32,000 nucleotides of DNA from Trichodesmium erythraeum IMS101 (GTDB taxonomy: Bacteria; Cyanobacteriota; Cyanobacteriia; Cyanobacteriales; Microcoleaceae): the NCBI RefSeq assembly GCF_000014265.1, contig NC_008312.1, positions 3,330,001 to 3,362,000 of the forward strand, given 5' to 3'. Below the pieces are notes generated by a model. That model was not told the origin of the DNA, made no database searches, and worked only from the letters and a program-made list of their open reading frames with translations. This document shows positions 3,209-32,000 of the stretch, in pieces. Position numbers and translations under genes: made by a program. Position 1 is the stretch's first letter. Each line of letters begins with the position of its first letter.

Positions 3209-3715
3209 ATGGCTGTTAAAATAGTGAATAATATGGTTTGTTACGTTAAAATAGATATTATTGAATCAGCGGAAGAACTAAAAGAAATATTATCTCGACA
3301 GACAGATATAAAGCTCAAGCAAAAAGTACAAGCATTATATTGGCTTAAAATAGGAGCAGTAAATACTATTGAAAATATATCAATATTATTAGGATGTCAT
3401 CGAACAACTGTATCACGATGGTTTAGTACATATAGAAAGTTGGGTATAGAAGGTTTATTGAAGAAGAAAAAAATTTTGGGTAGACCTAGAAAAATATCAC
3501 CTATGTTAGAAAAAAAACTTAGAGATGAGCTAAAAGATATAGAGAGTTTTAAGAGTTATAATGAAGTGCAAACATGGTTAAAAGCAATGTGGGATATTAA
3601 TCTGCCATACTCAACAGTACATCGGTATGTTTATTATAATTTAAATACTAAATTAAAAGGGTCACCTCCAATAAGTAGTCAACAAAATTCAACAGCAGTT
3701 GAGGACTCAAAATAA
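3209..3715 (+). pseudogene. IS630-family-like transposase remnant. Only the N-terminal HTH / winged-helix part is present, and no DDE domain follows.
   Basis: The residues ...ISILLGCHRTTVSRWFSTYRKLGIEGLLKKKKILGRPRKISP...YSTVHRYVYYNLNTKLKG resemble the orfA/HTH region of cyanobacterial IS630-type transposases (from memory). The ORF stops at 168 aa, and downstream frames are broken. No catalytic domain and no clear terminal inverted repeats were found. Confidence 0.55.
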
Positions 3716-5014
3716 AATATTTTAACTACTATCGAAGGTAATTGAAAAATTGAAAATAACGGGTAAGTAAATTTTGGAACAGAGTTAAGTTTTACCTAAC
3801 TATTTAACTATCAGCTATCAGCTATTGAATGCTTACCTAATTATTTATCTCTACTTTATATACTTACTAAATACTTAATAGGCTAAGTTTCTACTACAAA
3901 AAAAATTATTACTTATTTACTGTCAGGTTAGTTTTTCCTTCTATTGCCTACTAAATTATGTTTGAAAAATTCATAGCTTTTATAAAGACAAAAGAATGGC
4001 AACTTGATTCGATGCAAATAGCAGAAGTTTTATGGTTTGTGCACCAAGTTAGTGAACAAAAACAGGAAGAAAATAATTCTCAAAATTTAGTTTCAAGTAA
4101 TACGGAGGAGCTAGCTGAAAACTTTGATCAATCTTATGACTTTCAACTTTCAAAAACAGCTAGTATTCAACAACCAAAAAAAACGCCTACTAGGTCTTCG
4201 TCTTCTCAATATCCTTTAACTACTTCATCATCAAATAAATCTCAAAATACAGAAATTCAACCAACATCTTTGACTACTGAAAAATTGCCTATCAAATTAC
4301 CAGACATAGCAATTTTGCGTAATACTCTAGAATTAAGTCGCCTAAGTAGTCAACAAAATTCAACAGCAGTTGAGGACTCAAAATAAAATATTTTAACTAC
4401 TATCGAAGGTAATTGAAAAATTGAAAATAACGGGTAAGTAAATTTTGGAACAGAGTTAAGTTTTACCTAACTATTTAACTATCAGCTATCAGCTATTGAA
4501 TGCTTACCTAATTATTTATCTCTACTTTATATACTTACTAAATACTTAATAGGCTAAGTTTCTACTACAAAAAAAATTATTACTTATTTACTGTCAGGTT
4601 AGTTTTTCCTTCTATTGCCTACTAAATTATGTTTGAAAAATTCATAGCTTTTATAAAGACAAAAGAATGGCAACTTGATTCGATGCAAATAGCAGAGGTT
4701 TTATGGTTTGTGCACCAAGTTAGTGAACAAAAACAGGAAGAAAATAATTCTCAAAATTTAGTTTCAAGTAATACGGAGGAGCTAGCTGAAAACTTTGATC
4801 AATCTTATGACTTTCAACTTTCAAAAACAGCTAGTATTCAACAACCAAAAAAAACGCCTACTAGGTCTTCGTCTTCTCAATATCCTTTAACTACTTCATC
4901 ATCAAATAAATCTCAAAATACAGAAATTCAACCAACATCTTTGACTACTGAAAAATTGCCTATCAAATTACCAGACATAGCAATTTTGCGTAATACTCTA
5001 GAATTAAGTCGCCT
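3673..5014 (+). repeat. Perfect-register tandem duplication, 2 x 671 bp (copy 1 is 3673-4343, copy 2 is 4344-5014)
   Basis: By eye the two copies are identical apart from one substitution that I found (A at 4026 versus G at 4697, synonymous Glu). Each copy holds ~285 bp of IS-remnant/leader sequence plus the first ~386 nt of the large vWA gene. Confidence 0.95.
3958..4386 (+). pseudogene. Truncated duplicate of the N-terminus (about aa 1-129) of the 1911-aa vWA protein, fused to a 13-aa out-of-context tail. It may be expressed as a stand-alone N-terminal domain.
   Basis: Same leader, ATG and first 129 codons as the CDS at 4629. The reading frame then crosses the duplication junction (4343/4344) into IS-remnant sequence and ends with SSQQNSTAVEDSK*, the same tail as the ORF at 3209. 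Confidence 0.8.
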
Positions 5015-8000
5015 TATTAAACCCTTCAAACAAAAGGTAAACTCTCGAGTTGCTCAGGAATTAGATGTTAATGAAACTGCCAAAATAAGTGCAGAACTTA
5101 GTACCCTGAATTTTCCCCGTTATTTTCCAGTTTTAACTCCTAAAAAAGAACGTTGGTTAGATGTTGTTTTGCTCATAGAAGATAGTGATTCAATGATTCT
5201 TTGGCAGTCTTTATTGCCAGAAGTTAGAGATTTTCTAGAACATTTAGGAGCATTTCGAGATATCAAACTTTATCGCATAAAATGGGATAATAATTCAGAA
5301 AATTTACAAATTTATCCTTTTCATTCTCCTTCTCTGACTCTATCTCCTCAAGAATTAAATTCATCCGATCATAGACGGTTAATTTTGATGCTTAGTGATT
5401 GTATTTCCCTAGCTTGGATTAATCAGAAATTTATTAATATTCTTCAAAAATGGGCAACAAAAGAAAAGTTGACTATCCTCAATCCTTTTCCTGAAAGAAT
5501 GTGGGAAAATACAAATCTTTGTTATGCAATTAGACTGCGATTAGGAAATAATAAAAAGCAAAATTCGACTCAAAAATGGGATGCAATTCCTATTGAGTAT
5601 TGGCAAGAAAAATACCTTAATCAACAAACAGTTAAATTACCAATTCTAAATTTAGAACCAAAGTCAATGGCTGCTTGGGTTAATGTTATGGTAGGAAAAG
5701 GAATCAGTTGGTGTGCTGGTGCTGGGTTAGGTTTAGAATTGATGGGTCCAGAGCCAGAAGAAGAGGAAGAACCTCTCACTCCTAGAGAACAAATTAATAA
5801 TTTTTATGCCACTTTTTCCAAGGAAGCTTGGCAATTAATTCAATGGTTATCTGCTATTCCAATTAATCTTTCTACTATTCGTTTAATACAACGAGCTTTA
5901 TTACCAAAGTCGACTCAAATTAATGTCGCAGAAGTATTAATGGGAGGATTATTAAGTCCGGTTAAACCTTTTAATTCTTATCGTTTTCCTCATCAAATTG
6001 AGTTTGAATTTCAACCGGGAATTAGGGAGATATTTTTAGACCGTTTAGGAGGAAAAGAATTTTGTATTGGGGTTATTGGTCGTTTAACTGAAAAAATTGC
6101 TAGTCATTTTGGATATGAAACTATTCGAGAATTTGAAGCAATTCTATTAAATGAACCTTGGAATTTTCGGGATGATCAAGATATTAGATTAATTCACACT
6201 TTTGCGACTATATCTATCTCAACTCTTAGGCAATATGGAGATAAATATACTGATTATATTCCCAAGTTAGATAGAAGTCGCGCTCAGTTATATTTGATGT
6301 CTGAAGTTCCAGGAGAATCTATAAATTGGAGAGATTTTCTGGAAAAAGTCGCTCAAAAATATCGTTTAAGTTCTATTCAAAAAGAAATTTTAATTAATCT
6401 ATTTCCAAGTTCCCAAGAATTTCTTTCTATTTCTGAACTAGCTCAAAAACTTCTCAGTTCGGCTTCAGTTATTAAAGGTCGCTTAAATCATATTTTTCCT
6501 AAATTTGAAAGTAAAAATCCAGATTTATTTGCATCTCAAAAATATTCTCGACTAGAAGCTCTGCATTTATTTTTATCTTCTGAATATAAAAATTCATATA
6601 TTCCTCAAATTCTTGAAAATGATCAAATTGAGGAAAATTTACAAGACTTGAATTCTGAAGTTCCAGGAGAGTCTGTAAAATGGAGAGATTTTCTGGAAAA
6701 AGTCGCTCAAGAGTATGATTTAACTTCTATTCAAAAAGAAATTTTAATTAATCTATTTCCAAGTTCCCAAGAATTTCTTTCTATTTCTGAACTAGCTCAA
6801 AAACTTCTCAGTTCGGCTTCAGTTATTAAAGGTCGCTTAAATCATATTTTTCCTAAATTTGAAAATAAAAATCCAGATTTATTTGCATCTCAAAAATATT
6901 CTCGACTAGAAGCTCTGCATTTATTTTTATCTTCTGAATATGTAAATTCATATATTCCTCAAACTCTTGAAAATGATCAAATTGAGGAAAATTTACAAGA
7001 CTTGAATTCTGAAGTTCCAGGAGAGTCTGTAAAATGGAGAGATTTTCTGGAAAAAGTCGCTCAAGAGTATGATTTAACTTCTATTCAAAAAGAAATTTTA
7101 ATTAATCTATTTCCAAGTTCCCAAGAATTTCTTTCTATTTCTGAACTAGCTCAAAAACTTCTCAGTTCGGCTTCAGTTATTAAAGGTCGCTTAAATCATA
7201 TTTTTCCTAAATTTGAAAGTAAAAATCCAGATTTATTTGCATCTCAAAAATATTCTCGACTAGAAGCTCTGCATTTATTTTTATCTTCTGAATATAAAAA
7301 TTCATATATTCCTCAAATTCTTGAAAATGATCAAATTGAGGAAAATTTACAAGACTTGAATTCTGAAGTTCCAGGAGAGTCTGTAAAATGGAGAGATTTT
7401 CTGGAAAAAGTCGCTCAAGAGTATGATTTAACTTCTATTCAAAAAGAAATTTTAATTAATCTATTTCCAAGTTCCCAAGAATTTCTTTCTATTTCTGAAC
7501 TAGCTCAAAAACTTCTCAGTTCGGCTTCAGTTATTAAAGGTCGCTTAAATCATATTTTTCCTAAATTTGAAAATAAAAATCCAGATTTATTTGCATCTCA
7601 AAAATATTCTCGACTAGAAGCTCTGCATTTATTTTTATCTTCTGAATATGTAAATTCATATATTCCTCAAACTCTTGAAAATGATCAAATTGAGGAAAAT
7701 TTACAAGACTTGAATTCTGAAGTTCCAGGAGAGTCTGTAAAATGGAGAGATTTTCTGGAAAAAGTCGCTCAAGAGTATGATTTAACTTCTATTCAAAAAG
7801 AAATTTTAATTAATCTATTTCCAAGTTCCCAAGAATTTCTTTCTATTTCTGAACTAGCTCAAAAACTTCTCAGTTCGGCTTCAGTTATTAAAGGTCGCTT
7901 AAATCATATTTTTCCTAAATTTGAAAGTAAAAATCCAGATTTATTTGCATCTCAAAAATATTCTCGACTAGAAGCTCTGCATTTATTTTTATCTTCTGAA

Positions 8001-10364
8001 TATAAAAATTCATATATTCCTCAAATTCTTGAAAATGATCAAATTGAGGAAAATTTACAAGACTTGAATTCTGAAGTTCCAGGAGAGTCTGTAAAATGGA
8101 GAGATTTTCTGGAAAAAGTCGCTCAAAAATATCGTTTAAGTTCTAGTCAAAAAGAAATTTTAATTAATCTATTTCCAAGTTCCCAAGAATTTCTTTCTAT
8201 TTCTGAACTAGCTCAAAAACTGTCTCTTTCAACTTCAGCCATTAGGGGTCGCTTAACTAATATCTTTCGTAAATTTGAAAGTAAAAATCCAGATTTATTT
8301 GCATCTCAAAAATATTCTCGACTAGAAGCTCTGCATTTATTTTTATCTTCTGAATATAAAAATTCATATATTCCTCAAATTCTTGAAAATGATCAAATTG
8401 AGGAAAATTTACAAGACTTGAATTCTGAGGTTCCAGGAGAGTCTGTAAAATGGAGAGATTTTCTGGAAAAAGTCGCTCAAGAGTATGATTTAACTTCTAT
8501 TCAAAAAGAAATTTTAATTAATCTATTTCCAAGTTCCCAAGAATTTCTTTCTATTTCTCAAGCTGCTCAAAAACTGTCTCTTTCAACTTCAGCCATTAGG
8601 GGTCGCTTAACTAATATCTTTCGTAAATTTGAAAGTAAAAATCCAGATTTATTTGCATCTCAAAAATATTCTCGACTAGAAGCTCTGCATTTATTTTTAT
8701 CTTCTGAATATAAAAATTCATATATTCCTCAAATTCTTGAAAATGATCAAATTGAGGAAAATTTACAAGACTTGAATTCTGAAGTTCCAGGAGAGTCTGT
8801 AAAATGGAGAGATTTTCTGGAAAAAGTCGCTCAAGAGTATGATTTAAATTCTATTCAAAAAGAAATTTTAATTAATCTATTTCCAAGTTCCCAAGAATTT
8901 CTTTCTATTTCTGAACTAGCTCAAAAACTTCTCAGTTCGGCTTCAGTTATTAAAGGTCGCTTAAATCATATTTTTCCTAAATTTGAAAGTAAAAATCCAG
9001 ATTTATTTGCATCTCAAAAATATTCTCGACTAGAAGCTCTGCATTTATTTTTATCTTCTGAATATGTAAATTCATATATTCCTCAAATTCTTGAAAATGA
9101 TCAAATTGAGGAAAATTTACAAGACTTGAATTCTGAGGTTCCAGGAGAGTCTGTAAAATGGAGAGATTTTCTGGAAAAAGTCGCTCAAGAGTATGATTTA
9201 ACTTCTATTCAAAAAGAAATTTTAATTAATCTATTTCCAAGTTCCCAAGAATTTCTTTCTATTTCTCAAGCTGCTCAAAAACTGTCTCTTTCAACTTCAG
9301 CCATTAGGGGTCGCTTAACTAATATCTTTCGTAAATTTGAGAATAAAAACCCAGGGTTATTTGAATCTAGAAAAGGCTCTAAATTAGAAGCTCTACAGTC
9401 ATTTTTATTTTCTCAATATGTAAATTTAGATATTCCTCAAACTATTAAAAATAATCAGTTTCAAATTGGGGAAAAATTACAACATTGGAGTTTTAAAACC
9501 CCTACTGTTAACCGACGTGGAAATATTATCAACACCAGAACTTATACTGCTTCTTATTTCATCGAAATTCTTGGGCCTGATATTAATTTAGAAATGGTAG
9601 CTATCCCTGGTGGTACTTTTACCATGGGTTCTCCTGAAAGTGAAAAGTATAGCGAAGATAATGAACGGCCCCAACATCAGGTAACTGTTCCTTCCTTTTT
9701 TATGGGCAAATATCCAGTAACTCAAGGACAGTGGAAAGCGATCGCCTCTCGAACAGACATAAAAGTAGAAGGAGACCTAGACCCAGAGCCATCATATTTT
9801 AAAGAACCATACGAAAATATAGATAGATGGCACAGACCAGTGGAGCGGGTTAGTTGGAACCAAGCAGTAGAATTTTGTCAAAGACTATCAAAACTAACAG
9901 GAAGAAAGTACAGGTTGCCGAGTGAAGCAGAATGGGAATATGCTTGTCGTGCAGGAACGAGTACACCATTCTACTTTGGAGAAACCATAACACCTGAGTT
10001 AGCTAACTATGATGGGAAGTATACTTACAGCGATGGGCCAAAAGGAGAATATAGAGGGCAAACAACTCCTGTAGGTAAATTTCCACCAAATGCTTTTGGT
10101 TTATATGATATGCATGGAAACGTTCATGAATGGTGTGCTGACGACAGGCATGATAACTATGTAGGAGCTCCTACAGATGGAAGTGCTTGGATTAATAGTA
10201 ATACACATAGTGATACTAAAAGTAGAAAAATCCTTCGTAGCGGCTCCTGGTACGGCTATCCTTGGTGGTGTCGCTCTGGGGACCGCAACAGCTATTTCTC
10301 CGTCGAGGCGAACAACATCATTTTTGGTTTTCGTCTTGTGAGTGTCCCCCCCCAGGACTTTTGA
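4629..10364 (+). CDS. Giant multidomain protein. Order of parts: N-terminal alpha-helical domain, S/T/Q-rich linker, vWA-like domain, helical middle region, 9 tandem HTH modules, C-terminal FGE-sulfatase (SUMF1/C-type-lectin fold) domain.
   Basis: 1911-aa uninterrupted ORF. The vWA evidence is a MIDAS-like VVLLIEDSDSM (DSDSM at 5181-5195), then LILMLSDC and LTILNPFPERMW strands. The FGE-sulfatase evidence from ~9589 is GGTFTMGS, RPVERVSWNQAVEFCQRL, YRLPSEAEWEYACRAG, FGLYDMHGNVHEWC and RSGSW. Each repeat module contains a sigma70-region-4/LuxR-like HTH (LTSIQKEILINLF...LSISELAQKL..S.SVIKGRLNHIFPKF). Confidence 0.9.
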   Translation: MFEKFIAFIKTKEWQLDSMQIAEVLWFVHQVSEQKQEENNSQNLVSSNTEELAENFDQSYDFQLSKTASIQQPKKTPTRSSSSQYPLTTSSSNKSQNTEIQPTSLTTEKLPIKLPDIAILRNTLELSRLIKPFKQKVNSRVAQELDVNETAKISAELSTLNFPRYFPVLTPKKERWLDVVLLIEDSDSMILWQSLLPEVRDFLEHLGAFRDIKLYRIKWDNNSENLQIYPFHSPSLTLSPQELNSSDHRRLILMLSDCISLAWINQKFINILQKWATKEKLTILNPFPERMWENTNLCYAIRLRLGNNKKQNSTQKWDAIPIEYWQEKYLNQQTVKLPILNLEPKSMAAWVNVMVGKGISWCAGAGLGLELMGPEPEEEEEPLTPREQINNFYATFSKEAWQLIQWLSAIPINLSTIRLIQRALLPKSTQINVAEVLMGGLLSPVKPFNSYRFPHQIEFEFQPGIREIFLDRLGGKEFCIGVIGRLTEKIASHFGYETIREFEAILLNEPWNFRDDQDIRLIHTFATISISTLRQYGDKYTDYIPKLDRSRAQLYLMSEVPGESINWRDFLEKVAQKYRLSSIQKEILINLFPSSQEFLSISELAQKLLSSASVIKGRLNHIFPKFESKNPDLFASQKYSRLEALHLFLSSEYKNSYIPQILENDQIEENLQDLNSEVPGESVKWRDFLEKVAQEYDLTSIQKEILINLFPSSQEFLSISELAQKLLSSASVIKGRLNHIFPKFENKNPDLFASQKYSRLEALHLFLSSEYVNSYIPQTLENDQIEENLQDLNSEVPGESVKWRDFLEKVAQEYDLTSIQKEILINLFPSSQEFLSISELAQKLLSSASVIKGRLNHIFPKFESKNPDLFASQKYSRLEALHLFLSSEYKNSYIPQILENDQIEENLQDLNSEVPGESVKWRDFLEKVAQEYDLTSIQKEILINLFPSSQEFLSISELAQKLLSSASVIKGRLNHIFPKFENKNPDLFASQKYSRLEALHLFLSSEYVNSYIPQTLENDQIEENLQDLNSEVPGESVKWRDFLEKVAQEYDLTSIQKEILINLFPSSQEFLSISELAQKLLSSASVIKGRLNHIFPKFESKNPDLFASQKYSRLEALHLFLSSEYKNSYIPQILENDQIEENLQDLNSEVPGESVKWRDFLEKVAQKYRLSSSQKEILINLFPSSQEFLSISELAQKLSLSTSAIRGRLTNIFRKFESKNPDLFASQKYSRLEALHLFLSSEYKNSYIPQILENDQIEENLQDLNSEVPGESVKWRDFLEKVAQEYDLTSIQKEILINLFPSSQEFLSISQAAQKLSLSTSAIRGRLTNIFRKFESKNPDLFASQKYSRLEALHLFLSSEYKNSYIPQILENDQIEENLQDLNSEVPGESVKWRDFLEKVAQEYDLNSIQKEILINLFPSSQEFLSISELAQKLLSSASVIKGRLNHIFPKFESKNPDLFASQKYSRLEALHLFLSSEYVNSYIPQILENDQIEENLQDLNSEVPGESVKWRDFLEKVAQEYDLTSIQKEILINLFPSSQEFLSISQAAQKLSLSTSAIRGRLTNIFRKFENKNPGLFESRKGSKLEALQSFLFSQYVNLDIPQTIKNNQFQIGEKLQHWSFKTPTVNRRGNIINTRTYTASYFIEILGPDINLEMVAIPGGTFTMGSPESEKYSEDNERPQHQVTVPSFFMGKYPVTQGQWKAIASRTDIKVEGDLDPEPSYFKEPYENIDRWHRPVERVSWNQAVEFCQRLSKLTGRKYRLPSEAEWEYACRAGTSTPFYFGETITPELANYDGKYTYSDGPKGEYRGQTTPVGKFPPNAFGLYDMHGNVHEWCADDRHDNYVGAPTDGSAWINSNTHSDTKSRKILRSGSWYGYPWWCRSGDRNSYFSVEANNIIFGFRLVSVPPQDF
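6300..9485 (+). repeat. Nine in-frame tandem copies of a 354-bp (118-aa) coding unit
   Basis: Unit starts (TCTGAAGTTCCAGGAGA) fall at 6300, 6654, 7008, 7362, 7716, 8070, 8424, 8778 and 9132. Copies 2+3 and 4+5 form an apparently identical 708-bp super-repeat. Copies 6, 7 and 9 carry an alternative recognition-helix cassette (KLSLSTSAIRGRLTNIFRKF instead of KLLSSASVIKGRLNHIFPKF). Copy 9 diverges in its second half. Confidence 0.95.
10236..10361 (+). other. Candidate DGR variable region (VR) at the extreme C-terminus of the FGE-sulfatase domain
   Basis: It encodes RSGSWYGYPWWCRSGDRNSYFSVEANNIIFGFRLVSVPPQDF. This aligns with the RGGSW-NNN..N-CRSANRN-NN...-NNN-GFR(V/L)V layout of C-type-lectin-fold DGR targets (from memory). 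The segment is conspicuously A-poor (about 18 A in ~125 nt by hand count) and GC-rich within an AT-rich gene. It ends with a C8 run (10346-10353) just before the stop. Confidence 0.5.
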
Positions 10365-17168: not shown

Positions 17169-18502
17169 ATATTCATTATCCTAATTTTATATTTAGTAAC
17201 TTTAATATTATATGTAAAAAATTACCATAATTGAAAGGATTTACACTTTTTATAATTTGGTGATAATTCACAGATAAAATTAAAGTTTTACTCATATAAT
17301 TTAATATTTAGAAACCTAAAAATAAATGTAATTATTCTGAGAAATTATTAAATATGATATTTTCCCAAAAATCAACTAATTACTGTCTAAATTTCATAAA
17401 AAAGTTGGCTATTGATTAATAAATTGTGATTTCTTAATCAAATAGCACAAATTAATCTCAATAGAATTATTGATTCTAGGATGAAATAAATATTCCTGAC
17501 TGGTCCTCACTTAATCAGTAAAATTACTAATAAATTAATGAGAGGTCAAATGTCAAGAAAAAATAAAAGTTAGCAAAAAAAAATTAATCTGAGAACTATT
17601 GACAAAAATTTTATATCTTTGCTATTATTCAAATTAATAAAGTATAAAATTTTAGAACCTATAGTCATTAGTTGGCTGCTGTCTCATCCATGGTAGATAT
17701 ATCAAGTTTATTTGTGTATCCAATCTTTGTAAGTAATCTCTAGCATAAATATATAATTATTTATTTAGGTAAATAGTTCAAAAGAATAATAATTTTTAAG
17801 ATAGTTATTTCCAACTATGATATGAGCAAATAAGTTTTTAAGTTTCTACTTAACTAAAAATATCATAATTCTTTATCTAAAAGAAAAGTAACTACAAATG
17901 AGATGAAAGCAATAAGTGTAATATATGGCAATCTACCATTGATAAGACATTAGCTTAGCTGAGGAAACTTAATATAATGTTTGCTCAGTTTGAGTGGTTC
18001 TAATTTGATAAAATTTTATGCCGAAAAACATACCAATATTATTAGTAATTTTGGAGTGATATTACAGCTAATTTCGGGCATAAGATGTACGGCTGTATTT
18101 AGAGAAAATTATGCATTGCGGGAATCTTGCTAGGGTGAGGGTATTCATAAAGTTGAAATATCCTGTATTTGTCACTCTCAATATATATTTTTTTGGTAAT
18201 TGTCTATCAAGAGATGGGAGTTTTTTTTATTTATACACTATTAAAAATAGATATCTAATATTCCCATATGTAAGTATTCAGTTATTAGCAGTCAGCTCTC
18301 AGTTTTTCCCAGCATAACCTTGTAAAAAACATGGATAAAAGTAATAAATTACTAAGTTTAGCTGATCGTCTTTTTCGTGTTGGACTTTTAATTTTTTTTG
18401 GAGGCTCATTCTTCCTTTTAGCTGATAGCTGATAGTTGATAGCTGAATACTTACCCAATATAGATAAATATAAATAAATATCAATAAATTGAAAATTAGC
18501 AA

Positions 18503-19204
18503 ATGATAGATAAAATACCTGAGTTTAAAAATCAAAAACTTCTTCAACAAGCTCTAACCCATCGTTCCTATTTAAACGAAAATTATGGAGATGAGGAAGA
18601 CAACGAAAGTCTAGAATTTATCGGCGATGCTTTACTAGGTTTCTTAGTAGGAGAATTGCTATATAGAAGATACAAAGAAGAGCATAATCTCAAACCCAAA
18701 GAACTTACTCGGATCCGTTCACTTTTAGTAGATGAAAAACAATTAGCAAAGTTCGCAGTTCAATTGGGAATTGGTGCAAAAATGCGCTTAGGTAAAGGTG
18801 CGGAAAAAGATGGTGGAAGGAAAAATCCAGCTTTACTAAGTGACACTTTTGAAGCAATAATTGGAGCCTATTTTTTGGACTCAAATTTAACGAAAGTTAA
18901 ACCTTTTATTAAAAGGCTTTTTGAACCTGTTGCAGATAATATAATTTTGCCTAATTATGGTGATAATTCACAACCAAAAGATTTAGTAGATACTAAGGGT
19001 AAATTTCAACAGTGGGCACTCGCAAAATTTGGAGAAAATCCTAGATATGAATCTAATAATGGAGAAGGTTTAGATCATGCTAAAATATTTACTGCGGAAG
19101 TTAGAGTTAGAGGAAAATTATATGGTGTTGGTAAAGGAAATCGTAAACAAGAAGCAGAAAAAAGTGCGGCAGAAAAAGCTCTGAAAAAAGTAGGGTTAAT
19201 TTGA
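18503..19204 (+). CDS. rnc: Ribonuclease III
   Basis: Contains LTHRSY, the signature ESLEFIGDALL, DTFEAIIGA, and a C-terminal dsRBD (KGKFQQWA...HAKIFTAEV...GKGNRKQEAEKSAAEKAL). Confidence 0.9.
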   Translation: MIDKIPEFKNQKLLQQALTHRSYLNENYGDEEDNESLEFIGDALLGFLVGELLYRRYKEEHNLKPKELTRIRSLLVDEKQLAKFAVQLGIGAKMRLGKGAEKDGGRKNPALLSDTFEAIIGAYFLDSNLTKVKPFIKRLFEPVADNIILPNYGDNSQPKDLVDTKGKFQQWALAKFGENPRYESNNGEGLDHAKIFTAEVRVRGKLYGVGKGNRKQEAEKSAAEKALKKVGLI

Positions 19205-19564
19205 TTGAATAAGGAAAAACTAATTTGGATAATTTCCTAGATTCATTTTTTTGAAGAGCTTAATTTTTTATTTGGGCAAGTCAGCCAATAAATTTTTATT
19301 TAAAAAGATTTAACTTAAAAAAAAGCTGATAACTCAATACTAATTGATATAAATAATTTTGAAATCTTAACTTTTGAGTTTCAACTTAAAATTACCAAAG
19401 AAATAAAGTTAATCTTTTACTCTTTCAACAGAATAAAAAAAACGAAATTTGGGATTTTTAGGTCTCCCTATTACTGGAAGTACTGTTGCCCTACGCGATA
19501 TGAAAAGCCCAGTTCCTCCTCCAGGAAGCTAACCAATAAATGATAATTGATACTGATAACTGAA

Positions 19565-21013
19565 ATGACGGATCAGCCAAGCTCCCGCAAAGAACTATAT
19601 GCTCGTATTCGCGAAATAGGCCGGGAAGAATTTCTCCTCGAAGAAATGACTCGCTATGGCTTTTGGCCAGAAGGTGAAGAAATGCCTCTAGACCCTGTCG
19701 ATGAAATTCAGCGTCGTGGGGAACTAGAACAACAACTGAAAAAACTTCGCCAAGAAAATGCCCACCTTTTTAACTTAAAGAAACTGGGTCAAGAAGCTTA
19801 CAAACAAAGATTAGTTGAGTCACGTCGCAAACAACAAGAAACTAAAGAACTTCGGGAAAGAGAAAGACAAGAACGCGCTAAAGCATGGCAAGAAAAAAAA
19901 GAAAATGACATTATTTATCTAGGGGAAGAGATATCTGGAGGACTGAATAATGTTGAAGGGAATATCTTTCGTCTCGAAATTTACAACCTCCCTATCCTTA
20001 ATACTGCCCAAGATATAGCTAATGCTATGGATATTACTGTGGGAGAACTTAGGTTTCTGGCATTTTCCCGCCCTACTTCTACAGTTTCCCACTACATCCG
20101 TTTCAAAATTCCTAAGAAAACAGGGGGAGAAAGGCAAATATCTGCTCCGATGCCACGTTTGAAAAATGTTCAAACTTGGATACTTGATAATATTCTCTGT
20201 AATGTTCCCCTCCATGAAGCAGTTCATGGTTTCCGTGCCGGACATTCTATTCTTACTAATGCTGAACCTCATGTGGCTAAAGATGTAATTATTAATTTTG
20301 ACCTAAAAAATTTTTTTCCCTCTATTTGTTACAAGCGTGTCAAAGGATTATTTTTTTCATTGGGTTACTCTGAAGCTGCTGCTACTATTTTTGCTCTTCT
20401 TTGTACTGAACCTAATGTCGTAGTAGTAGAGTTAGACGGACAGGTTTATTATGTAGCTCAGAGCGATCGCCACTTACCTCAAGGTTCTCCTGCTAGTCCA
20501 GCAATTACTAATATTATGTGTCGTCGCTTGGATAAACGTCTAAGTGAAATGGCAGCCAAACTTGATTTTGTTTATACTCGTTATGCTGATGACTTGACTT
20601 TTTCTAGTTCTGGAGATAGTCTCCGACACATTTGCAATGTTTTCCGACGTACTGAGTCTATTGTTAGTCATGAAGGGTTTACTGTAAATAGAGAAAAGAC
20701 CAGACTTCTTCGGGGCAAGTCTAGTCAACTTGAAGTTACTGGTGTTGTGGTGAATGAATTTCCGAATATTTCTCGCAAAGAGTTGAAGAGGTTTCGGGCA
20801 ACTTTATATCAGATAGAAAAGGACGGACCTCAAGGGAAAAGGTGGGGTCATAGTGATAATGTGATAGCTGCAATAGAAGGTTTTGCTAATTTTGTGGCGA
20901 TGGTCAACCCGGAAAAAGGTAGGGAGTTAGTGAGGCGGGTGAAACAAATTAAGGAAAAATATACTGGGAGAAGGAGGCGATCGACGAAAATTTTGGAGCA
21001 CGATGGTACTTAG
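19565..21013 (+). CDS. Retron-clade reverse transcriptase with a ~165-aa N-terminal coiled-coil extension
   Basis: RT motifs are IPKKTGGERQISAP, NFDLKNFFPSI, LPQGSPASPAITN and YTRYADDLTFS. Retron-type hallmarks are NAxxH (TNAEPH) and VTG (LEVTGVVVN). The N-terminus is rich in charged heptads (RRGELEQQLKKLRQEN...RKQQETKELRERERQERAKAW). The track start at 19547 is TTG, so I prefer the ATG at 19565. Confidence 0.88.
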   Translation: MTDQPSSRKELYARIREIGREEFLLEEMTRYGFWPEGEEMPLDPVDEIQRRGELEQQLKKLRQENAHLFNLKKLGQEAYKQRLVESRRKQQETKELRERERQERAKAWQEKKENDIIYLGEEISGGLNNVEGNIFRLEIYNLPILNTAQDIANAMDITVGELRFLAFSRPTSTVSHYIRFKIPKKTGGERQISAPMPRLKNVQTWILDNILCNVPLHEAVHGFRAGHSILTNAEPHVAKDVIINFDLKNFFPSICYKRVKGLFFSLGYSEAAATIFALLCTEPNVVVVELDGQVYYVAQSDRHLPQGSPASPAITNIMCRRLDKRLSEMAAKLDFVYTRYADDLTFSSSGDSLRHICNVFRRTESIVSHEGFTVNREKTRLLRGKSSQLEVTGVVVNEFPNISRKELKRFRATLYQIEKDGPQGKRWGHSDNVIAAIEGFANFVAMVNPEKGRELVRRVKQIKEKYTGRRRRSTKILEHDGT

Positions 21014-22624
21014 TTTACACCAGTTTAAGTTGTAATATTTTGCTGGCAGTTAAGACTCAAGAGTCAGGAGTCAAAATTTCAGAGGTTTTCAGTTAAAATT
21101 TTTAGTGAAAGATACAATTAAAATATAGCCAAGTTTTTGAGAATTGGTATAAGACTTTTAAGTTAATTTTTATTTAATCTTCTGTATTAACGAACCAAGG
21201 AGAATTAGTTTGAATTGCTCAATATTACCGAAAGTCTCTCCAAGTGGCTAAAGACTTTACAAAAACGTTGATACTGAAAGAAAAAAGGCAGCAACAGATG
21301 GTTAAAAAATGTTTGCTCAAATGTGTTTTGAGTAAGCAAAGAAAGACTATCTAAAATTTAAAATGAAGCCGGTCATCTTATATATTTATCTTAGTTAGGA
21401 ATAGAAAACCAATGCTATTAAAACTATCGTTACCTTAGTTTAGGGTAATTCTCCAAGTATTCCCGAAAAACCATACCATTTTAGTTTGCTTGCTCCTGGG
21501 TATTTCATCATGAATTAGGATACTTCTGGTAAAACCGCCACAGTTTAGGAGTTCTAGTCTCAGACACGGAATTGTATGTGGGAACGAAGTCAGTCCTTGA
21601 GTCCTCATCTGTTTAGAGGTAAGAAAAGAGTACACTTGAAGGCTCAAGAATTAAGGATATTCCAATAAGCAAAAGCCTAGCCTTATAGCTGGGATACCCA
21701 GGCTTGGGAAGGTATTGGAGGTATTAGTCTTAGTTGAAATTACTTACAACGGCTAAAACCCAGCTATTAGCAAAAGTGGGATCTATTACTATGGGCGAAC
21801 CCTTAAGCGTATATCCAGTATCAGAAGCCATGAGGGGCAAAACTCTCATTTATGGCGCATAAAGGAGGGAAGTAAGGGGATGCAATCTCCCCCATTGACT
21901 CTATGATAAATATCCATTGGTAAGGGTAGGAGTAAAGATTAGGGAGAGACTTTGCATCAAGGCGCGCCTAGTATATAATAGTGGGAATTACAGAGGATGT
22001 AGTTGAAAGAATTGCCCCTTAATTTTCTGCCCTTGTCTCTCACAAAACTCACATGCTCAACTATGGGAACTATGGGAAGAAAAAAGCTCGCAATTTTTTC
22101 CCAGATGCAAAGGCTAAAGTCTTGATATGTAAATGCTTTTAGATTTAGTCAGTAAGCCCTAATTAATTAAAGATGGATGGATACTTACTAATTATCCTGA
22201 TTTGATTGAATAGACCTCTTCAAAAACTAAGTTTTTACTTAGGTATTTCAAGGGTTTGAGATTAATTATCTCATAGATATAATATAGAAAATAAAACTCT
22301 ATTCTGCAAAATGGGTGTTTCACATATAGTATTTGTATTTAACACCCCAATTAAATTTTGAATCCATTTTTGATTAATCGTATCTCTTTCTATATTCAAT
22401 CCAATATTTTTTCTTGATAGTGAAGTTTCTACTTAAAGCTATGATTTGAGAACTGATAACTGATAGAGTTATTTCCTATATATCCTTGTCTAAAAAGTTA
22501 GATAACTTTCCTGAATTGATCTAAATATTAGCTAGAATGTAACTGATGGCCATAGATTTGTTTAATTTCTGTATTATGATATTTCAAGAATAATGAAGTA
22601 AATTTACAATAGGAGGTGAGTCCC

Positions 22625-25871: not shown

Positions 25872-26336
25872 TTATCCCAAAAATTTAGTTAAATCAAATT
25901 CGGCTTCTGCCTGAGGTTTCTGATATCTTTCAGAAATTAAAACTAATAAAAGACGCTCTGAATAATTTACTGCACCTCGCAGTTCATCTTGTAATATTTC
26001 CAATCCCCCATTAGCATACTCTTCAAATATTTTAATCCGATTTTCCTCTATTTCTTCATTAGTTTGGGAGAGAATTTTTGTATCTCTTGTGTCGGCGATC
26101 GCAATTAATTTAATAATATTTTCATATCCCCTAGACCAAAACACCTCAATATTAATTGGCCCTGGTTCTCTTATAGAAATTTCTGTCACTGGAATTCGCT
26201 TTTTTTTCTTAATAGCTAAAGATGCAGCAAATACTATTACATCTGCATAGGTTTTAAATGGGCCTGTTTTTCCTTCTGATTCAGTTAAAGCTTTAACTAA
26301 ATCTGCTTTATCTTTAGCAATTCTAATTCTGTTCAT
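25872..26336 (-). CDS. Small protein, possibly related to the 'DNA phosphorothioation (Dnd) system-associated protein 4' family
   Basis: 154-aa ORF. The N-terminal R...KD....L....E...GPF.TYADVIVFAASL and the IFEEYANGGLEIL block resemble what I remember of that family. Memory-based only and needs an HMM search. Confidence 0.4.
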   Translation of the reverse strand: MNRIRIAKDKADLVKALTESEGKTGPFKTYADVIVFAASLAIKKKKRIPVTEISIREPGPINIEVFWSRGYENIIKLIAIADTRDTKILSQTNEEIEENRIKIFEEYANGGLEILQDELRGAVNYSERLLLVLISERYQKPQAEAEFDLTKFLG

Positions 26337-29059: not shown

Positions 29060-31132
29060 TTAAAAATCATTATTATCTACCTCAAGTAATTCTGTATATT
29101 CAAACTCATTTGGACTACGTTTTACCAAAGGATAAGATTTACCACCTAACTCAATAGCATCTTCCTCACAATCTGATTTTGGAGAATTATAAGAAAGCAC
29201 ATATTCCCTGCCAATATAATCAGCCATTTCCTCAGCAACTTCACCTCGCCATTGAGTCTTAGTTACTAATACAACTAATTGATTTGCTAATTGAGGAATT
29301 ATTTTAGCAATTTTTCGCCGATAAATCTCATCTAAACTCCCAAAAGGAGAATCCATTACAATAGGAAAAGTACTACTGTCAGGACCCATTAAAGTATTTT
29401 TTTTACTCCACTCTCTTACCTGATCAATAATGCTACCAATAAATGCCAAACTGAGGATTTGATTCTCTCCTGTAGAAGCAGCAACTAAGTCATTTTTACT
29501 ACTAGTATTTTCTACTAAAGTTAACTCATAGTTTTTATTTAGCTGAGGAATATAAGGAGTAAAAGAAATTTCAGAAAATAACTCTTGTACCCGTTTTTCT
29601 AAAGAAATTCTAAATTGTTTTTCTAAACGTAAACGTACTTCGTTTAGCCTCTCAATAGCATCCTGAGTAGCAGCAATTCGTCTTTGAGATAAAACTTGCC
29701 TTAACTCATTCATAGTTTGGCGATCGACTTGTTTATCTAAAACCTTAATTTCTTTATGTAAAGTTTCTAACTGTAGACTATTTGAACCAGTTTCTCTATT
29801 TAAATTTCCCACCTTAATTTCAATTTCATCTAACCTTTTTTGTAACTCCTGAATATCCTCATCTGGATAAGAGCGTAATTTTTTTTGAACTATTTCCAAT
29901 TCATTTTCCACCCCTGAAAGCTGATAACGTAATTGTTCTATATTTCCTTGTTGTCTATCAACTTCATCCCAAAAATCTACAATTTGCTTATCAACTTCAT
30001 CCATTTGTACAGTCATTCTAATTGCAGTTTCTTCAACATCAGCAACCTCTACTTTTTGCATCCATTTTTCTACTAATTTTCTCCCATTAGAATCTATAGT
30101 TAATTCAGTGCCACAAATACAACGTTGTTTTTCTAATAACTGTTGAACAAACTGCCGATTAATTCCTGTAAGTAACTCACCTTTTTCCTTTAAATGACTA
30201 AATAATTCTCGAAATTCTACTATTGCTTCTGATAAAAAAACCATATAACCACGAGTTGATATAGCTCTTTTTAAACTCTGATTTGCTTGTACTATTTGTT
30301 CTTTTATTTCCCCAATACGAACCTTTAATTTGTCTCTTTGTTGAGGCAATCCTTCTGCACCTTTAAAATCTAACAAACGACTATTAATTTCTTTTTTAAA
30401 TTTTCCATGATGTTGTAATTCTTGATCTATTTCTTGTTGGCGTTTTGATAATTTATAAATTTCCTGTTCAATTTTACTTTTTTCTTTCAAGAACTTTTTA
30501 GTCTCTGGATTCCCAATCAATCTTAAATCAGTTTCTAGGGATTTTTTAGCTTCCCCTAAATGTCTAACAGAACGATTTAATACTTCAATTCCTAATAATT
30601 CCTTAGTAGCTTCTGCAATTTCACTTTTTTGGTTATCCCTAACAATATATTCAATTCTTTCACCGTCAAAAAAGAAATATCGATGTAAACTTTCTGGCAG
30701 AATTCTACCAATAATATCATCAGGATGTTCTGGTGGTGGAGACCAACGTCCATCATCTCCAGCTATCTGCATATATAGCTCACTTTTGCCATGTTCAATT
30801 TTATTTTCTTCGTTTCTATAAGCTCGACATAAACGCTTTGCTTGATAACGTTTATGATTATGTTCAAATATAATTTCTACCCAACAAGCAATAGCTTTAC
30901 CCGCTTTTGCTTCTGTAATTGCTCGTTTATTTACCAATTGAGTTTCTGCAGCAAAAGCTGCACTAAATTTCTCATAAAGTACCCAGGTAAAAGCATTCAT
31001 GATAGTAGTTTTACCGGCACCATTGTTGCCATGAATAATTGTCGTATTTTGTTTCCCTGAAGCACAAATTATTTCTGGAGTTTTGCCATAAAACTGGCGA
31101 AAGTTACACAATATAATTGACACTAATTTCAT
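29060..31132 (-). CDS. DndD-like SMC/ABC-type ATPase with a long coiled-coil insert
   Basis: 690 aa. Contains N-terminal LCNFRQFYG...IHGNNGAGKTT (Walker A), FFFDGERIE (DndD-like), ~330 aa of heptad-rich E/K/Q/L sequence with a central CICGTEL, a signature-like STGENQILSLAFIGSII, Walker B/D-loop FPIVMDSPFGSLD, and QLVVLVTKTQW. Confidence 0.8.
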   Translation of the reverse strand: MKLVSIILCNFRQFYGKTPEIICASGKQNTTIIHGNNGAGKTTIMNAFTWVLYEKFSAAFAAETQLVNKRAITEAKAGKAIACWVEIIFEHNHKRYQAKRLCRAYRNEENKIEHGKSELYMQIAGDDGRWSPPPEHPDDIIGRILPESLHRYFFFDGERIEYIVRDNQKSEIAEATKELLGIEVLNRSVRHLGEAKKSLETDLRLIGNPETKKFLKEKSKIEQEIYKLSKRQQEIDQELQHHGKFKKEINSRLLDFKGAEGLPQQRDKLKVRIGEIKEQIVQANQSLKRAISTRGYMVFLSEAIVEFRELFSHLKEKGELLTGINRQFVQQLLEKQRCICGTELTIDSNGRKLVEKWMQKVEVADVEETAIRMTVQMDEVDKQIVDFWDEVDRQQGNIEQLRYQLSGVENELEIVQKKLRSYPDEDIQELQKRLDEIEIKVGNLNRETGSNSLQLETLHKEIKVLDKQVDRQTMNELRQVLSQRRIAATQDAIERLNEVRLRLEKQFRISLEKRVQELFSEISFTPYIPQLNKNYELTLVENTSSKNDLVAASTGENQILSLAFIGSIIDQVREWSKKNTLMGPDSSTFPIVMDSPFGSLDEIYRRKIAKIIPQLANQLVVLVTKTQWRGEVAEEMADYIGREYVLSYNSPKSDCEEDAIELGGKSYPLVKRSPNEFEYTELLEVDNNDF

Positions 31133-31374
31133 TGTACTGCTTCCTTAATAATTTTGAGAATATCATCATTAATTCGAGGAGTTTTTTTATAAAGCCTGTC
31201 TTTTTCTAGTTGTAATACTCGGCCAATGATATACTTTACTTCTGGAGGTGCAGTAGTAATTGGTTCTTGAATATTATTTAGCTTACTTTGACTTTGAGCA
31301 TTGTATGTTGAATGCTTCTCTGAAAAAATATTTGATATGTTTATGATTCCTTTGTCTGAGTATTTTGAAGTCAT
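31129..31374 (-). CDS. Small protein of unknown function, translationally coupled to the DndD-like ATPase
   Basis: Its stop TGA overlaps the ATPase ATG (ATGA overlap at 31129-31132). The track start is TTG at 31419, and the first ATG (MTSKYSDKG...) is at 31374. The C-terminal helix is PEVKYIIGRVLQLEKDRLYKKTPRINDDILKIIKEAV. Confidence 0.55.
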   Translation of the reverse strand: MTSKYSDKGIINISNIFSEKHSTYNAQSQSKLNNIQEPITTAPPEVKYIIGRVLQLEKDRLYKKTPRINDDILKIIKEAVQ

Positions 31375-32000
31375 TTGAATTTTAATAATAAGTAATACCT
31401 CATGTTCTTTATGTACCAAATTTTTATCAAAGATGGCTACATATCATGCTCAAAAACTAAATCACACAATTTTTTAAAATATTTAGTGTAGCCTAAGTTA
31501 GGAGTTATATATGTGTAGCAATATTCACAATAAAATTCCTTTCATTCTCACAAGCCTAACTGCAAAAATCACTACTTGTACACTACTACCCCTAAATTAA
31601 TGAAATTGGAATCATTATACTGGGTTGCTAAGTATTAGTGGTAAGTATTACAGCACTTTTCAGATTTATGAGCCATACCTTCATAACCAAAAGAAAATCC
31701 TGTAGAGGCATTTTCCTGTAGAATACTATGTAAACATATTGAACAAAAAAAGGGCCATTTACTCTTATTCAAATCTACTGAAATGAAAACTGCTGTATGT
31801 ATATAAGTGGTAGGTATTATGTACATTGTTTTCAACAACAAATTTGGCTAAGGTTAAGAAATAGTATTTATAGGGTTAATTTAATTGAATACATTCAAGT
31901 TTTGTTAACAGATTTTAATTTGTATTGGCATAAAAAAGCTGGCTTCCTAATATACTAAAATCTTAATTGTAAAATTTTAGTAGCGGGAAAAATCAGGTGA

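What the first reader, a model, noticed from the sequence alone, without database searches (positions are those of the whole stretch)
19205..21013. Orphan retron-clade reverse transcriptase with a coiled-coil N-terminal extension and no visible msr/msd or effector
Seen: the RT has the retron-type signatures NAxxH (TNAEPH) and VTG (LEVTGVVVN) plus QGSPASP and YADD. It also has about 165 extra N-terminal residues dominated by charged heptads. The 360-nt upstream spacer is extremely AT-rich except for 19450-19535. I could not find the a1/a2 inverted repeats expected of a retron ncRNA there. No cognate effector gene abuts the RT. RNase III lies 360 nt upstream on the same strand, and the next ORF is 1.6 kb downstream.

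Established knowledge: retron RTs normally work with an adjacent msr-msd ncRNA and one or more effector proteins.

Inference: the N-terminal extension might itself be the effector or partner domain, the ncRNA may lie in an unusual place, or this is a different RT-based system.
Basis: partly seen in the sequence, partly recalled or inferred. Interest (0 to 1): 0.7.

Follow-up and report, generated by a model that had tools for sequence, protein, structure and literature searches.

The report
Reverse transcriptase of a split retron
This gene is the reverse transcriptase of a well-known retron family (the Mx162 type, "type XIII") in the marine cyanobacterium Trichodesmium, and it only looks orphaned because its template RNA and one partner gene lie elsewhere on the chromosome, an unusual scattered layout for such a system.

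Summary
An intact retron-type reverse transcriptase (RT) gene (19565-21013, +) lies 360 nt downstream of RNase III. The 32-kb window contains no retron ncRNA and no effector gene.

The RT is not a new kind of enzyme. It matches the PADLOC type XIII retron RT model over its full length (E=3.9e-190). Its N-terminal extension is conserved across the whole Mx162 family, so it does not replace an effector. By its coordinates in the literature, the gene is Tery_2145 of Trichodesmium erythraeum IMS101.

In 80 related genomes the usual layout is WGR/HEAT protein, SWIM protein, ncRNA, then RT. A covariance model of that ncRNA finds nothing in the window (best 6.6 bits). IMS101 does encode a type XIII SWIM protein (ABG51018.1). 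Contigs carrying that exact protein also hold a full-scoring ncRNA (175.7 bits) about 2.3 kb downstream, with no RT within 10 kb.

The retron is therefore dispersed: RNase III plus RT here, SWIM plus ncRNA elsewhere. Kamptonema shows the same kind of split. I could not locate the WGR/HEAT partner.

The RT most likely acts in trans on the distant ncRNA. This is a new layout of a known system and of moderate interest.

The parts
19565..21013 (+). Type XIII (Mx162-family) retron reverse transcriptase, 482 aa. It corresponds to Tery_2145 of T. erythraeum IMS101. The mechanical ORF begins at a TTG at 19547, but the conserved start is the ATG at 19565.
   Evidence: PADLOC RT_XIII E=3.9e-190 over residues 5-478. 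Pfam RVT_1. Best solved relative is retron Ec86 RT, E=9e-46. Start codon taken from alignment A1. Literature coordinates 3349565-3351013 have the same length, 1449 nt.
19565..20059 (+). N-terminal extension of the RT (about 165 residues before RT motif 1). It has a conserved N-terminal motif (ELYxRIRxxGREEFxLEEMxRYGFWP...DPxDEI), then a long charged helix.
   Evidence: Many invariant columns in A1. Homologues across phyla align from residues 1-14 onward. The predicted helix spans residues 50-121, but the model has low confidence. No solved homologue covers residues 1-132.
20258..20272 (+). Retron-specific NAxxH motif (NAEPH)
20582..20593 (+). Catalytic YADD motif
   Evidence: invariant in A1
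20735..20743 (+). Retron-specific VTG motif
   Evidence: invariant in A1
18503..19204 (+). RNase III gene (RNase III domain plus dsRBD). It is a recurrent upstream neighbour of this RT in cyanobacteria and stayed with the RT when the locus split. It may be a processing partner or only conserved synteny.
   Evidence: Pfam Ribonucleas_3_3, Ribonuclease_3 and dsrm. The rnc-RT adjacency also occurs in L001, L004, L010, L035 and L085.
19205..19564 (+). rnc-RT spacer. It holds no retron ncRNA. Only 19329-19476 is conserved with Okeania, and 19481-19545 is a lineage-specific insertion.
21014..22615 (.). Non-coding stretch downstream of the RT. It holds no ncRNA or gene remnant of the system and is not conserved with Okeania.

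Best explanation
The gene encodes the reverse transcriptase of a type XIII (Mx162-family) retron whose components are scattered around the Trichodesmium chromosome.

Shown:
- The RT is a full-length, motif-complete member of the type XIII RT family.
- The family's usual gene order is WGR/HEAT protein, SWIM protein, ncRNA, RT.
- The window contains only the RT, preceded by RNase III.
- The same species encodes an intact type XIII SWIM protein.
- Contigs carrying that exact protein hold an intact, structurally conserved type XIII ncRNA with no RT nearby.

Inferred:
- The RT made here binds the ncRNA transcribed at the other locus.
- It primes from the 2'-OH of the branching G, in the conserved CAGC just after the a1 arm, and copies the msd hairpin into msDNA.
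- The RT-msDNA complex then works with the SWIM protein, a predicted DEDE nuclease or transposase-like protein with a winged helix and a SWIM finger, and with a WGR/HEAT protein if one exists.
- Trans action is plausible because the cyanobacterial ncRNAs look like separate transcription units. The Trichodesmium-clade copies have a conserved TATAAT just upstream of a1, and the cyanobacterial copies have a T-run just after a2.

The biological output of type XIII retrons, whether defence or a domesticated cellular role, is not known.
For: RT identity:
- PADLOC RT_XIII E=3.9e-190, full length.
- NCBIfam retron models score well above the group II and Drt2 models.
- Best solved relatives are retron RTs.

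Canonical layout:
- Clustering of 80 genome loci gives C2-C1-RT.
- C2 is WGR_XIII (E=0) and C1 is SWIM_XIII (E=1.8e-247).
- The ncRNA begins about 20-65 nt after the SWIM stop in the loci checked. 94.7% of cells are paired, 30 of 40 pairs show compensatory changes, and 0 of 500 shuffles do as well.

Absent from the window:
- Covariance model R1 gives at best 6.6 bits, while it scores 29-200 bits in control loci from four phyla.
- tblastn for WGR and SWIM is negative.

Present elsewhere in the genome:
- P0243 is ABG51018.1, 'zinc finger, SWIM-type [T. erythraeum IMS101]', on the 7,750,108-bp contig.
- It matches SWIM_XIII at E=2.2e-240.
- Contigs carrying that exact protein have the ncRNA at 175.7 bits, E=1.5e-47, and no RT or WGR within 10 kb.
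- Compensatory changes in the a1/a2 arms and the msd stem occur among three RT-unlinked copies, L211, L116 and L193.

Precedent for a split:
- In Kamptonema the RT stands alone (L087), and WGR-HicAB-SWIM-ncRNA stands alone (L090).

Selection on the RT:
- dN/dS against Okeania is 0.20, and 0.15 in the RT domain.
- The RT is 68% identical to L004, compared with 75% for GlgA and 51% for RNase III in the same pair of loci.
Against: - No WGR/HEAT gene was found in the window or within 10 kb of the SWIM gene. I could not search the rest of the genome.
- Mestre et al. report that the RT co-evolves most closely with that WGR/HEAT protein.
- A related Trichodesmium MAG (L010) has this RT as a pseudogene, with an in-frame stop and a lost C-terminus. 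The RT is therefore dispensable in at least one relative.
- dN/dS of 0.20 is higher than the 0.07 between two Nostocales copies.
- Trans action of a natural retron RT on an unlinked ncRNA, and msDNA in Trichodesmium, have not been shown. Nothing on either turned up in the papers searched.
- The SWIM-ncRNA contigs I read are metagenome contigs that carry the IMS101 protein exactly. I did not read the IMS101 chromosome itself.
Confidence: 0.72

Rival explanations
1. Relic RT. After the locus broke up, the RT lost its function. It is decaying slowly and looks intact only because too little time has passed.
For: - L010 (a Trichodesmium MAG) carries a stop codon and a C-terminal truncation in the same rnc-RT context.
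- dN/dS is raised, at 0.20.
- No WGR/HEAT gene was found.
Against: - The ORF is intact and motif-complete in the window, in Okeania (L001), and in full-length homologues at 86-88% identity (P0002-P0004, including Trichodesmium sp. MAG_R03 and Okeania).
- dN/dS is well below 1 at dS=0.33.
- The exact protein recurs in 43 blocks of public assemblies.
- The unlinked SWIM gene and ncRNA are themselves intact, and the ncRNA shows compensatory changes.
Confidence: 0.12
2. The rnc-RT pair is a functional unit. RNase III would process the long a1/a2 or msd duplex of the ncRNA or act as an effector, or the RT would use a template other than the type XIII ncRNA.
For: - RNase III is the gene immediately upstream of the RT, on the same strand, in six cyanobacterial loci that fall in at least two RT subclades. 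The gap is 34-37 nt in L004 and L035.
- RNase III stayed with the RT when the SWIM-ncRNA module separated (window, L001, L010).
- Okeania carries a tandem duplicate of the gene.
- A NYN nuclease joins the pair in L004 and L010.
Against: - Most type XIII loci, including many cyanobacterial ones (L005-L007, L026, L088, L140, L204), have no rnc.
- RNase III is less conserved than the RT, at 51% against 68% identity, as expected of an ordinary neighbour.
- It has no PADLOC hit.
- Inherited synteny alone could explain the pattern.
Confidence: 0.12
3. One reading: the N-terminal coiled-coil extension is itself the effector or partner domain, making this a self-contained single-gene system.
For: The extension is long, conserved and has no known fold.
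Against: The same extension is present, and alignable from residue 1-14, in RTs that sit next to complete WGR-SWIM-ncRNA sets in several phyla. It was described for Mx162, Mx65, Sa163 and Ne144. It is therefore not a substitute acquired by orphan copies.
Confidence: 0.03
4. It is not a retron RT at all, but a group II intron, DGR or UG/Abi reverse transcriptase.
For: Only weak secondary matches: TIGR04416 group II RT/maturase at 64 bits against a cutoff of 300, and Drt2 at 39 bits against 390.
Against: - RT_XIII scores 631 bits over the full length, and every top PADLOC hit is a retron RT.
- The retron-specific NAxxH and VTG motifs are present.
- There is no maturase or endonuclease domain and no intron RNA.
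Confidence: 0.01

Closest known systems
Type XIII retrons (RT clade 10 of Mestre et al. 2020): Retron-Mxa1 (Mx162), Mxa2 (Mx65), Sau1 (Sa163) and Nex2 (Ne144)
   Same: - The RT family is the same, including the extended N-terminus and the NAxxH, YADD and VTG motifs.
- The genome holds the same partner SWIM protein and the same ncRNA family.
- The branching G sits in a CAGC context, as in Mx162 and Sa163.
- Inheritance looks vertical.
   Different: - The components are not contiguous. The RT lies at one locus with RNase III. SWIM and the ncRNA lie at another, about 2.3 kb apart from each other.
- No WGR/HEAT gene is next to either.
- The cyanobacterial ncRNAs end in a T-run, and the Trichodesmium-clade copies carry their own TATAAT box, so they look like separate transcription units.
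Contiguous cyanobacterial type XIII loci, such as Nostocales L088/L007, Aetokthonos L026 and L085
   Same: RT 65-70% identical, SWIM 73-76% identical, and an ncRNA that scores the same against the covariance model (162-200 bits against 176 bits).
   Different: Those loci keep WGR-SWIM-ncRNA-(NYN)-(rnc)-RT on one strand within about 8 kb. Trichodesmium and Okeania keep only rnc-RT together.
'Orphan' retrons such as Retron-Eco5 (Ec107), discussed by Mestre et al. 2020
   Same: No effector gene adjoins the RT.
   Different: Those orphans keep msr-msd next to the RT, and their hosts mostly lack the known partner proteins. Here the RT lacks even the ncRNA locally, while the genome keeps both the ncRNA and the SWIM partner elsewhere.
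Engineered retron editors that express the RT and the msr-msd from separate promoters (from my own knowledge, not checked here)
   Same: The RT acts in trans on a separately transcribed ncRNA.
   Different: That arrangement is artificial. This one would be natural, which remains inferred, not shown.

Membership tests
Type XIII retron (Mestre et al. 2020; PADLOC retron_XIII) | RT belongs to clade 10 and matches the RT_XIII profile over its full length | tested here: met
   E=3.9e-190, 630.8 bits, residues 5-478 against profile positions 5-433 of 469. The next model scores 307 bits.
Type XIII retron (Mestre et al. 2020; PADLOC retron_XIII) | Extended N-terminus typical of the Mx162-group RTs | tested here: met
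   It is conserved in A1. Myxococcota, Bacteroidota and Acidobacteriota homologues align from residues 1-14. The literature describes it.
Type XIII retron (Mestre et al. 2020; PADLOC retron_XIII) | Type XIII msr-msd ncRNA contiguous with the RT | tested here: not met
   Covariance model R1 with filters off gives at best 6.6 bits, E=0.55, in the whole window. nhmmer finds nothing. An ncRNA of the family exists at another locus of the species (L211 13909-14112, 175.7 bits).
Type XIII retron (Mestre et al. 2020; PADLOC retron_XIII) | Adjacent gene for the DEDE / winged-helix / SWIM protein (cluster 114) | tested here: not met
   There is no tblastn trace in the window. The gene is present elsewhere in the genome: ABG51018.1, SWIM_XIII E=2.2e-240.
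Type XIII retron (Mestre et al. 2020; PADLOC retron_XIII) | WGR plus HEAT/ARM accessory protein (cluster 216), present in many but not all systems | tested here: inconclusive
   It is absent from the window and from within 10 kb of the SWIM gene in L211 and L214.
Retron (general) | Retron-specific RT motifs NAxxH and VTG, plus YADD | tested here: met
   NAEPH at 20258-20272, VTG at 20735-20743, YADD at 20582-20593.
Retron (general) | Produces branched msDNA from the ncRNA | not testable with these tools
   This needs msDNA extraction or cDNA sequencing from Trichodesmium, or heterologous expression.
Group II intron RT/maturase | Reaches the TIGR04416 cutoff; has a maturase (X) domain and the intron RNA | tested here: not met
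   64 bits against a cutoff of 300. There is no intron RNA in Rfam.

The most novel reading that the evidence does not exclude
In filamentous cyanobacteria the type XIII retron is not a mobile defence island. It is a domesticated, vertically inherited cellular system whose parts can be scattered around the chromosome and work in trans. RNase III, and in some genomes a NYN nuclease, would be a dedicated processing partner of the RT and ncRNA.

Points in its favour:
- Conservation resembles that of core genes. The RT is 65-70% and SWIM 73-88% identical across orders, and the RT is about as conserved as GlgA.
- Chromosomal synteny is shared between L004 and the window.
- Independent splits have occurred in the Trichodesmium/Okeania clade, in Kamptonema and in Spirulinaceae.
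- The rnc-RT linkage has persisted.
Probability: 0.15. Interest if true: 0.7.

Novelty: new variant of a known kind. Interest (0 to 1): 0.45.

Why it matters
Retrons are defined, and detected by tools such as PADLOC and DefenseFinder, as contiguous ncRNA-RT-effector cassettes. Here a natural case has an intact RT, ncRNA and SWIM partner that are unlinked, and it recurs in several cyanobacterial lineages. Such systems will be called 'orphan RT' or missed altogether.

If trans action is confirmed, retron components do not need co-transcription in nature. It would also support the view that the oldest-known retron family (Mx162 type), whose function is still unknown, has a cellular role that is conserved for long periods. 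Trichodesmium and its relatives would then offer a natural test of which components must stay together: rnc-RT on one side and SWIM-ncRNA on the other.

Tried and rejected
- **ncRNA in the spacer or downstream.** I looked in 19205-19564 and in 21014-22615. The inverted repeats are AT-rich chance matches. Rfam finds nothing. nhmmer and the covariance model R1 are negative. The G+C-richer patch folds no better than shuffles and is largely an insertion absent from Okeania.
- **Pseudogene remnants.** tblastn finds no trace of WGR, SWIM, NYN or the c24 gene in the window.
- **Close relatives on long contigs.** Look-ups of P0002, P0003 and P0242 returned 'not on record'.
- **First SWIM protein search.** Using the L085 SWIM as query gave no Trichodesmium among the top 120 hits. 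I got round this by scanning metagenome contigs for the invariant motif TLGLSGWTxNDW, picking low-G+C loci and searching again with L116.
- **Structure of the RT and its N-terminal extension.** The 20-sequence alignment gave pLDDT 49.8 and pTM 0.27. That is too poor for a fold search, so I ran none. No solved homologue covers residues 1-132.
- **Supplementary tables of Mestre et al. 2020.** They are not held in the library.
- **WGR/HEAT gene in Trichodesmium.** I could not search for it genome-wide.
Full report
**1. The observation**

The ORF at 19547-21013 (+) is real. All homologues start at the ATG at 19565, which gives a 482-aa protein (A1). It carries NAEPH, QGSPASP, YADD and VTG at the expected places.

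Pfam RVT_1 begins at residue 188. The alignment to the solved retron Ec86 RT begins at residue 133. The long N-terminal extension is therefore genuine.

RNase III (18503-19204, +) ends 360 nt upstream. The next sizeable ORF begins at 22616. The spacer is 20.8% G+C over 19205-19449 and 47.7% over 19450-19535.

**2. Which RT it is**

PADLOC's RT_XIII model matches at E=3.9e-190 over essentially the whole protein, N-terminus included. The next models, all retron RTs, score half as much or less. NCBIfam retron models score 216-231 bits, against 64 bits for group II RT/maturase and 39 bits for Drt2.

Type XIII is clade 10 of Mestre et al. 2020, the family of the classical myxobacterial retrons Mx162, Mx65, Sa163 and Ne144. 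It is associated with a DEDE / winged-helix / SWIM protein and with WGR-HEAT/ARM proteins. It has its own ncRNA type and shows signs of vertical inheritance (PMC7736814).

Simon et al. 2019 had already grouped a putative T. erythraeum RT with the Mx162 group, and they described that group's extended N-terminus (PMC6868368). Paul et al. 2022 list the single retron RT of T. erythraeum IMS101 as Tery_2145 at 3349565-3351013 (+). That gene has the same length as this one, 1449 nt, and an offset of exactly 3,330,000. The window is therefore almost certainly IMS101 3330001-3362000 (inference). The exact protein also occurs on a contig longer than 1 Mb.

**3. What the family looks like elsewhere**

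The RT has thousands of homologues, and the top 120 clusters are all at least 65% identical. Those that carry a source name are all cyanobacteria, from many orders.

I fetched 80 genome loci and clustered their ORFs. The recurrent layout is C2 (about 1050 aa), then C1 (about 547 aa), then RT, all on one strand. C2 is PADLOC WGR_XIII (E=0) and C1 is SWIM_XIII (E=1.8e-247).

In the loci I checked, the region directly after the SWIM stop folds into a textbook retron ncRNA: long a1/a2 arms, an msr hairpin and a long msd hairpin. It is strongly conserved in sequence (nhmmer; alignment A3). I built a covariance model, R1, from it. On an 18-sequence alignment fitted to that model, 94.7% of cells pair, 30 of 40 pairs show compensatory changes, and 0 of 500 shuffles do as well.

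**4. What is missing from the window**

R1 with filters off gives at best 6.6 bits (E=0.55) anywhere in the 32 kb. In contrast it recovers ncRNAs at 29-200 bits in cyanobacterial, Acidobacteriota, Bacteroidota and Firmicutes loci that were not used to build it.

tblastn with six cyanobacterial WGR and SWIM proteins finds nothing in the window. There is also no remnant of the NYN or c24 genes that flank the RT in L004 and L010.

The spacer shares only 19329-19476 with Okeania. The G+C-richer part is mostly an insertion and is not structured. Locally, then, the RT really is alone apart from RNase III.

**5. Where the partners are**

Split layouts exist in other cyanobacteria.
- In a Kamptonema genome the RT has no WGR, SWIM or ncRNA within 8 kb (L087).
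- In Kamptonema animale, WGR-HicAB-SWIM-ncRNA (181.6 bits) has no RT within 8 kb (L090).
- A Spirulinaceae RT (L089) and a Calothrix RT (L039) are also alone.

A first SWIM search did not reach Trichodesmium. I therefore scanned metagenome contigs for the invariant SWIM motif TLGLSGWTxNDW. Two low-G+C loci, L116 and L193, came up with SWIM plus ncRNA (172-175 bits) and no RT.

Searching with the L116 SWIM protein returned P0243 at 89% identity. P0243 is ABG51018.1, 'zinc finger, SWIM-type [Trichodesmium erythraeum IMS101]', on the 7,750,108-bp contig. Cluster members come from several other Trichodesmium MAGs.

Contigs carrying exactly that protein (L211-L213, 34% G+C) show this order: DnaK, DnaJ, TusA, RsgA, several other genes, DUF3593, SWIM (SWIM_XIII E=2.2e-240), and about 2.3 kb further on a type XIII ncRNA at 175.7 bits (E=1.5e-47). 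No RT and no WGR lie within 10 kb. A related low-G+C genome (L214) has the same SWIM-ncRNA pair, again alone.

Among L211, L116 and L193 the a1/a2 arms and the msd stem differ by compensatory changes. A TATAAT box lies just upstream of a1, and a T-run follows a2. The same T-run follows a2 in the linked cyanobacterial loci. This suggests the ncRNA is its own transcription unit (inference).

**6. Is the RT still in use?**

For:
- It is intact in the window and in Okeania (L001), and full-length homologues at 86-88% identity come from Trichodesmium sp. MAG_R03 and Okeania.
- dN/dS against Okeania is 0.20, and 0.15 in the RT domain, at dS=0.33.
- Against L004, which shares the downstream GlgA gene and hence the chromosomal position, the RT is 68% identical. 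GlgA is 75% identical and RNase III 51%.

Against:
- One Trichodesmium MAG (L010) has the RT as a pseudogene.
- The ratio is higher than the 0.07 seen between two Nostocales copies.

**7. RNase III**

An rnc gene lies immediately upstream of the RT, on the same strand, in the window, L001 (two tandem copies), L010, L004, L035 and L085. In L004 and L035 the gap is only 34-37 nt. In the linked loci rnc lies between the ncRNA and the RT.

On an RT tree these loci fall in at least two subclades. About twice as many cyanobacterial loci lack rnc, and so do all the non-cyanobacterial loci examined. When the Trichodesmium/Okeania locus split, the break fell upstream of rnc. This could reflect function, because the long a1/a2 and msd duplexes are plausible RNase III substrates. 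It could equally be inherited synteny. I rate a dedicated role at about 0.12.

**8. Verdict**

The finding is a correctly spotted but misread feature. It is the known type XIII retron RT of T. erythraeum, with the N-terminal extension typical of its family.

What is new relative to the literature I could search is the architecture. The retron is dispersed, with rnc-RT at one locus and SWIM-ncRNA at another, and similar splits recur in other cyanobacteria. The most likely mechanism is trans action of this RT on the distant ncRNA (confidence about 0.7). The WGR/HEAT partner and the biological role remain open.

Noticed in passing
window 29060-31132 (-), 31129-31419 (-), 25872-26336 (-): A 690-aa SMC/AAA_23 ATPase matches PADLOC PbeC (a DndD-like protein) at E=0 over its full length. 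A 96-aa ORF overlaps its start. Nearby, a 154-aa product carries the Pfam family 'DNA_S_mod_dnd_assoc_4' in the precomputed table. This looks like a Pbe/Dnd-type DNA-modification or defence gene set about 5-10 kb from the RT.
   Followed up: partly
window 4629-10364 (+): A giant 1911-aa ORF holds 8.9 near-identical 354-nt tandem repeats (6300-9457, 95% matches) and a C-terminal FGE-sulfatase (C-type-lectin-like) domain. That domain type is the one DGRs diversify in cyanobacteria. I did not check it against the published Trichodesmium DGR target list.
   Followed up: partly
window 98-991 (+) and 1996-2943 (+): A VMAP-C (vWA-MoxR-associated) protein and a MoxR-like AAA ATPase lie at the start of the window, followed by an HTH_32/HTH_23 protein at 3209-3715.
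   Followed up: no
L001 138-781 and 802-1543 (Okeania sp. SIO2F4): RNase III is tandemly duplicated, with a third fragment at 15-138, directly upstream of the orthologous RT.
   Followed up: partly
L028 2259-3068; L018 7364-8040; L008 1016-1542; L013 9338-9900; L088 2233-2427 and 7443-7646; L046 4768-5008 and 9595-9792: Several type XIII loci carry two or three copies of the ncRNA. Most are in tandem. In L088 one copy lies upstream of the WGR gene and one after the SWIM gene.
   Followed up: no
L090 7295-7760 (Kamptonema animale): A HicA/HicB toxin-antitoxin pair is inserted between the WGR and SWIM genes of the retron.
   Followed up: no
L008, L011, L012 (Acidobacteriota / Pyrinomonadaceae MAGs): Their RTs are 62-65% identical to the cyanobacterial ones and sit just outside the cyanobacterial cluster in the RT tree. 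Their ncRNAs are also very similar. This suggests transfer between phyla, or mis-binned contigs.
   Followed up: no
L010 10019-11131 (Trichodesmium sp. MAG jk18x7bins.61): The orthologous RT is a pseudogene, with an in-frame stop at residue 79 and the C-terminus after residue 371 lost. It is still preceded by NYN and RNase III genes.
   Followed up: yes
L004 8273-9061; L010 8068-8586: A NYN-domain (LabA-like) nuclease gene lies between the ncRNA and rnc-RT in some cyanobacterial type XIII loci. The window has lost it: window 18188-18263 aligns to the sequence just upstream of the L010 NYN gene.
   Followed up: partly
window 17169-18502 and 21014-22615: Long AT-rich non-coding stretches (1.3 and 1.6 kb, 25-34% G+C) flank the rnc-RT pair. 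This is typical of the gene-poor Trichodesmium genome. Nothing conserved or structured was found in them.
   Followed up: partly
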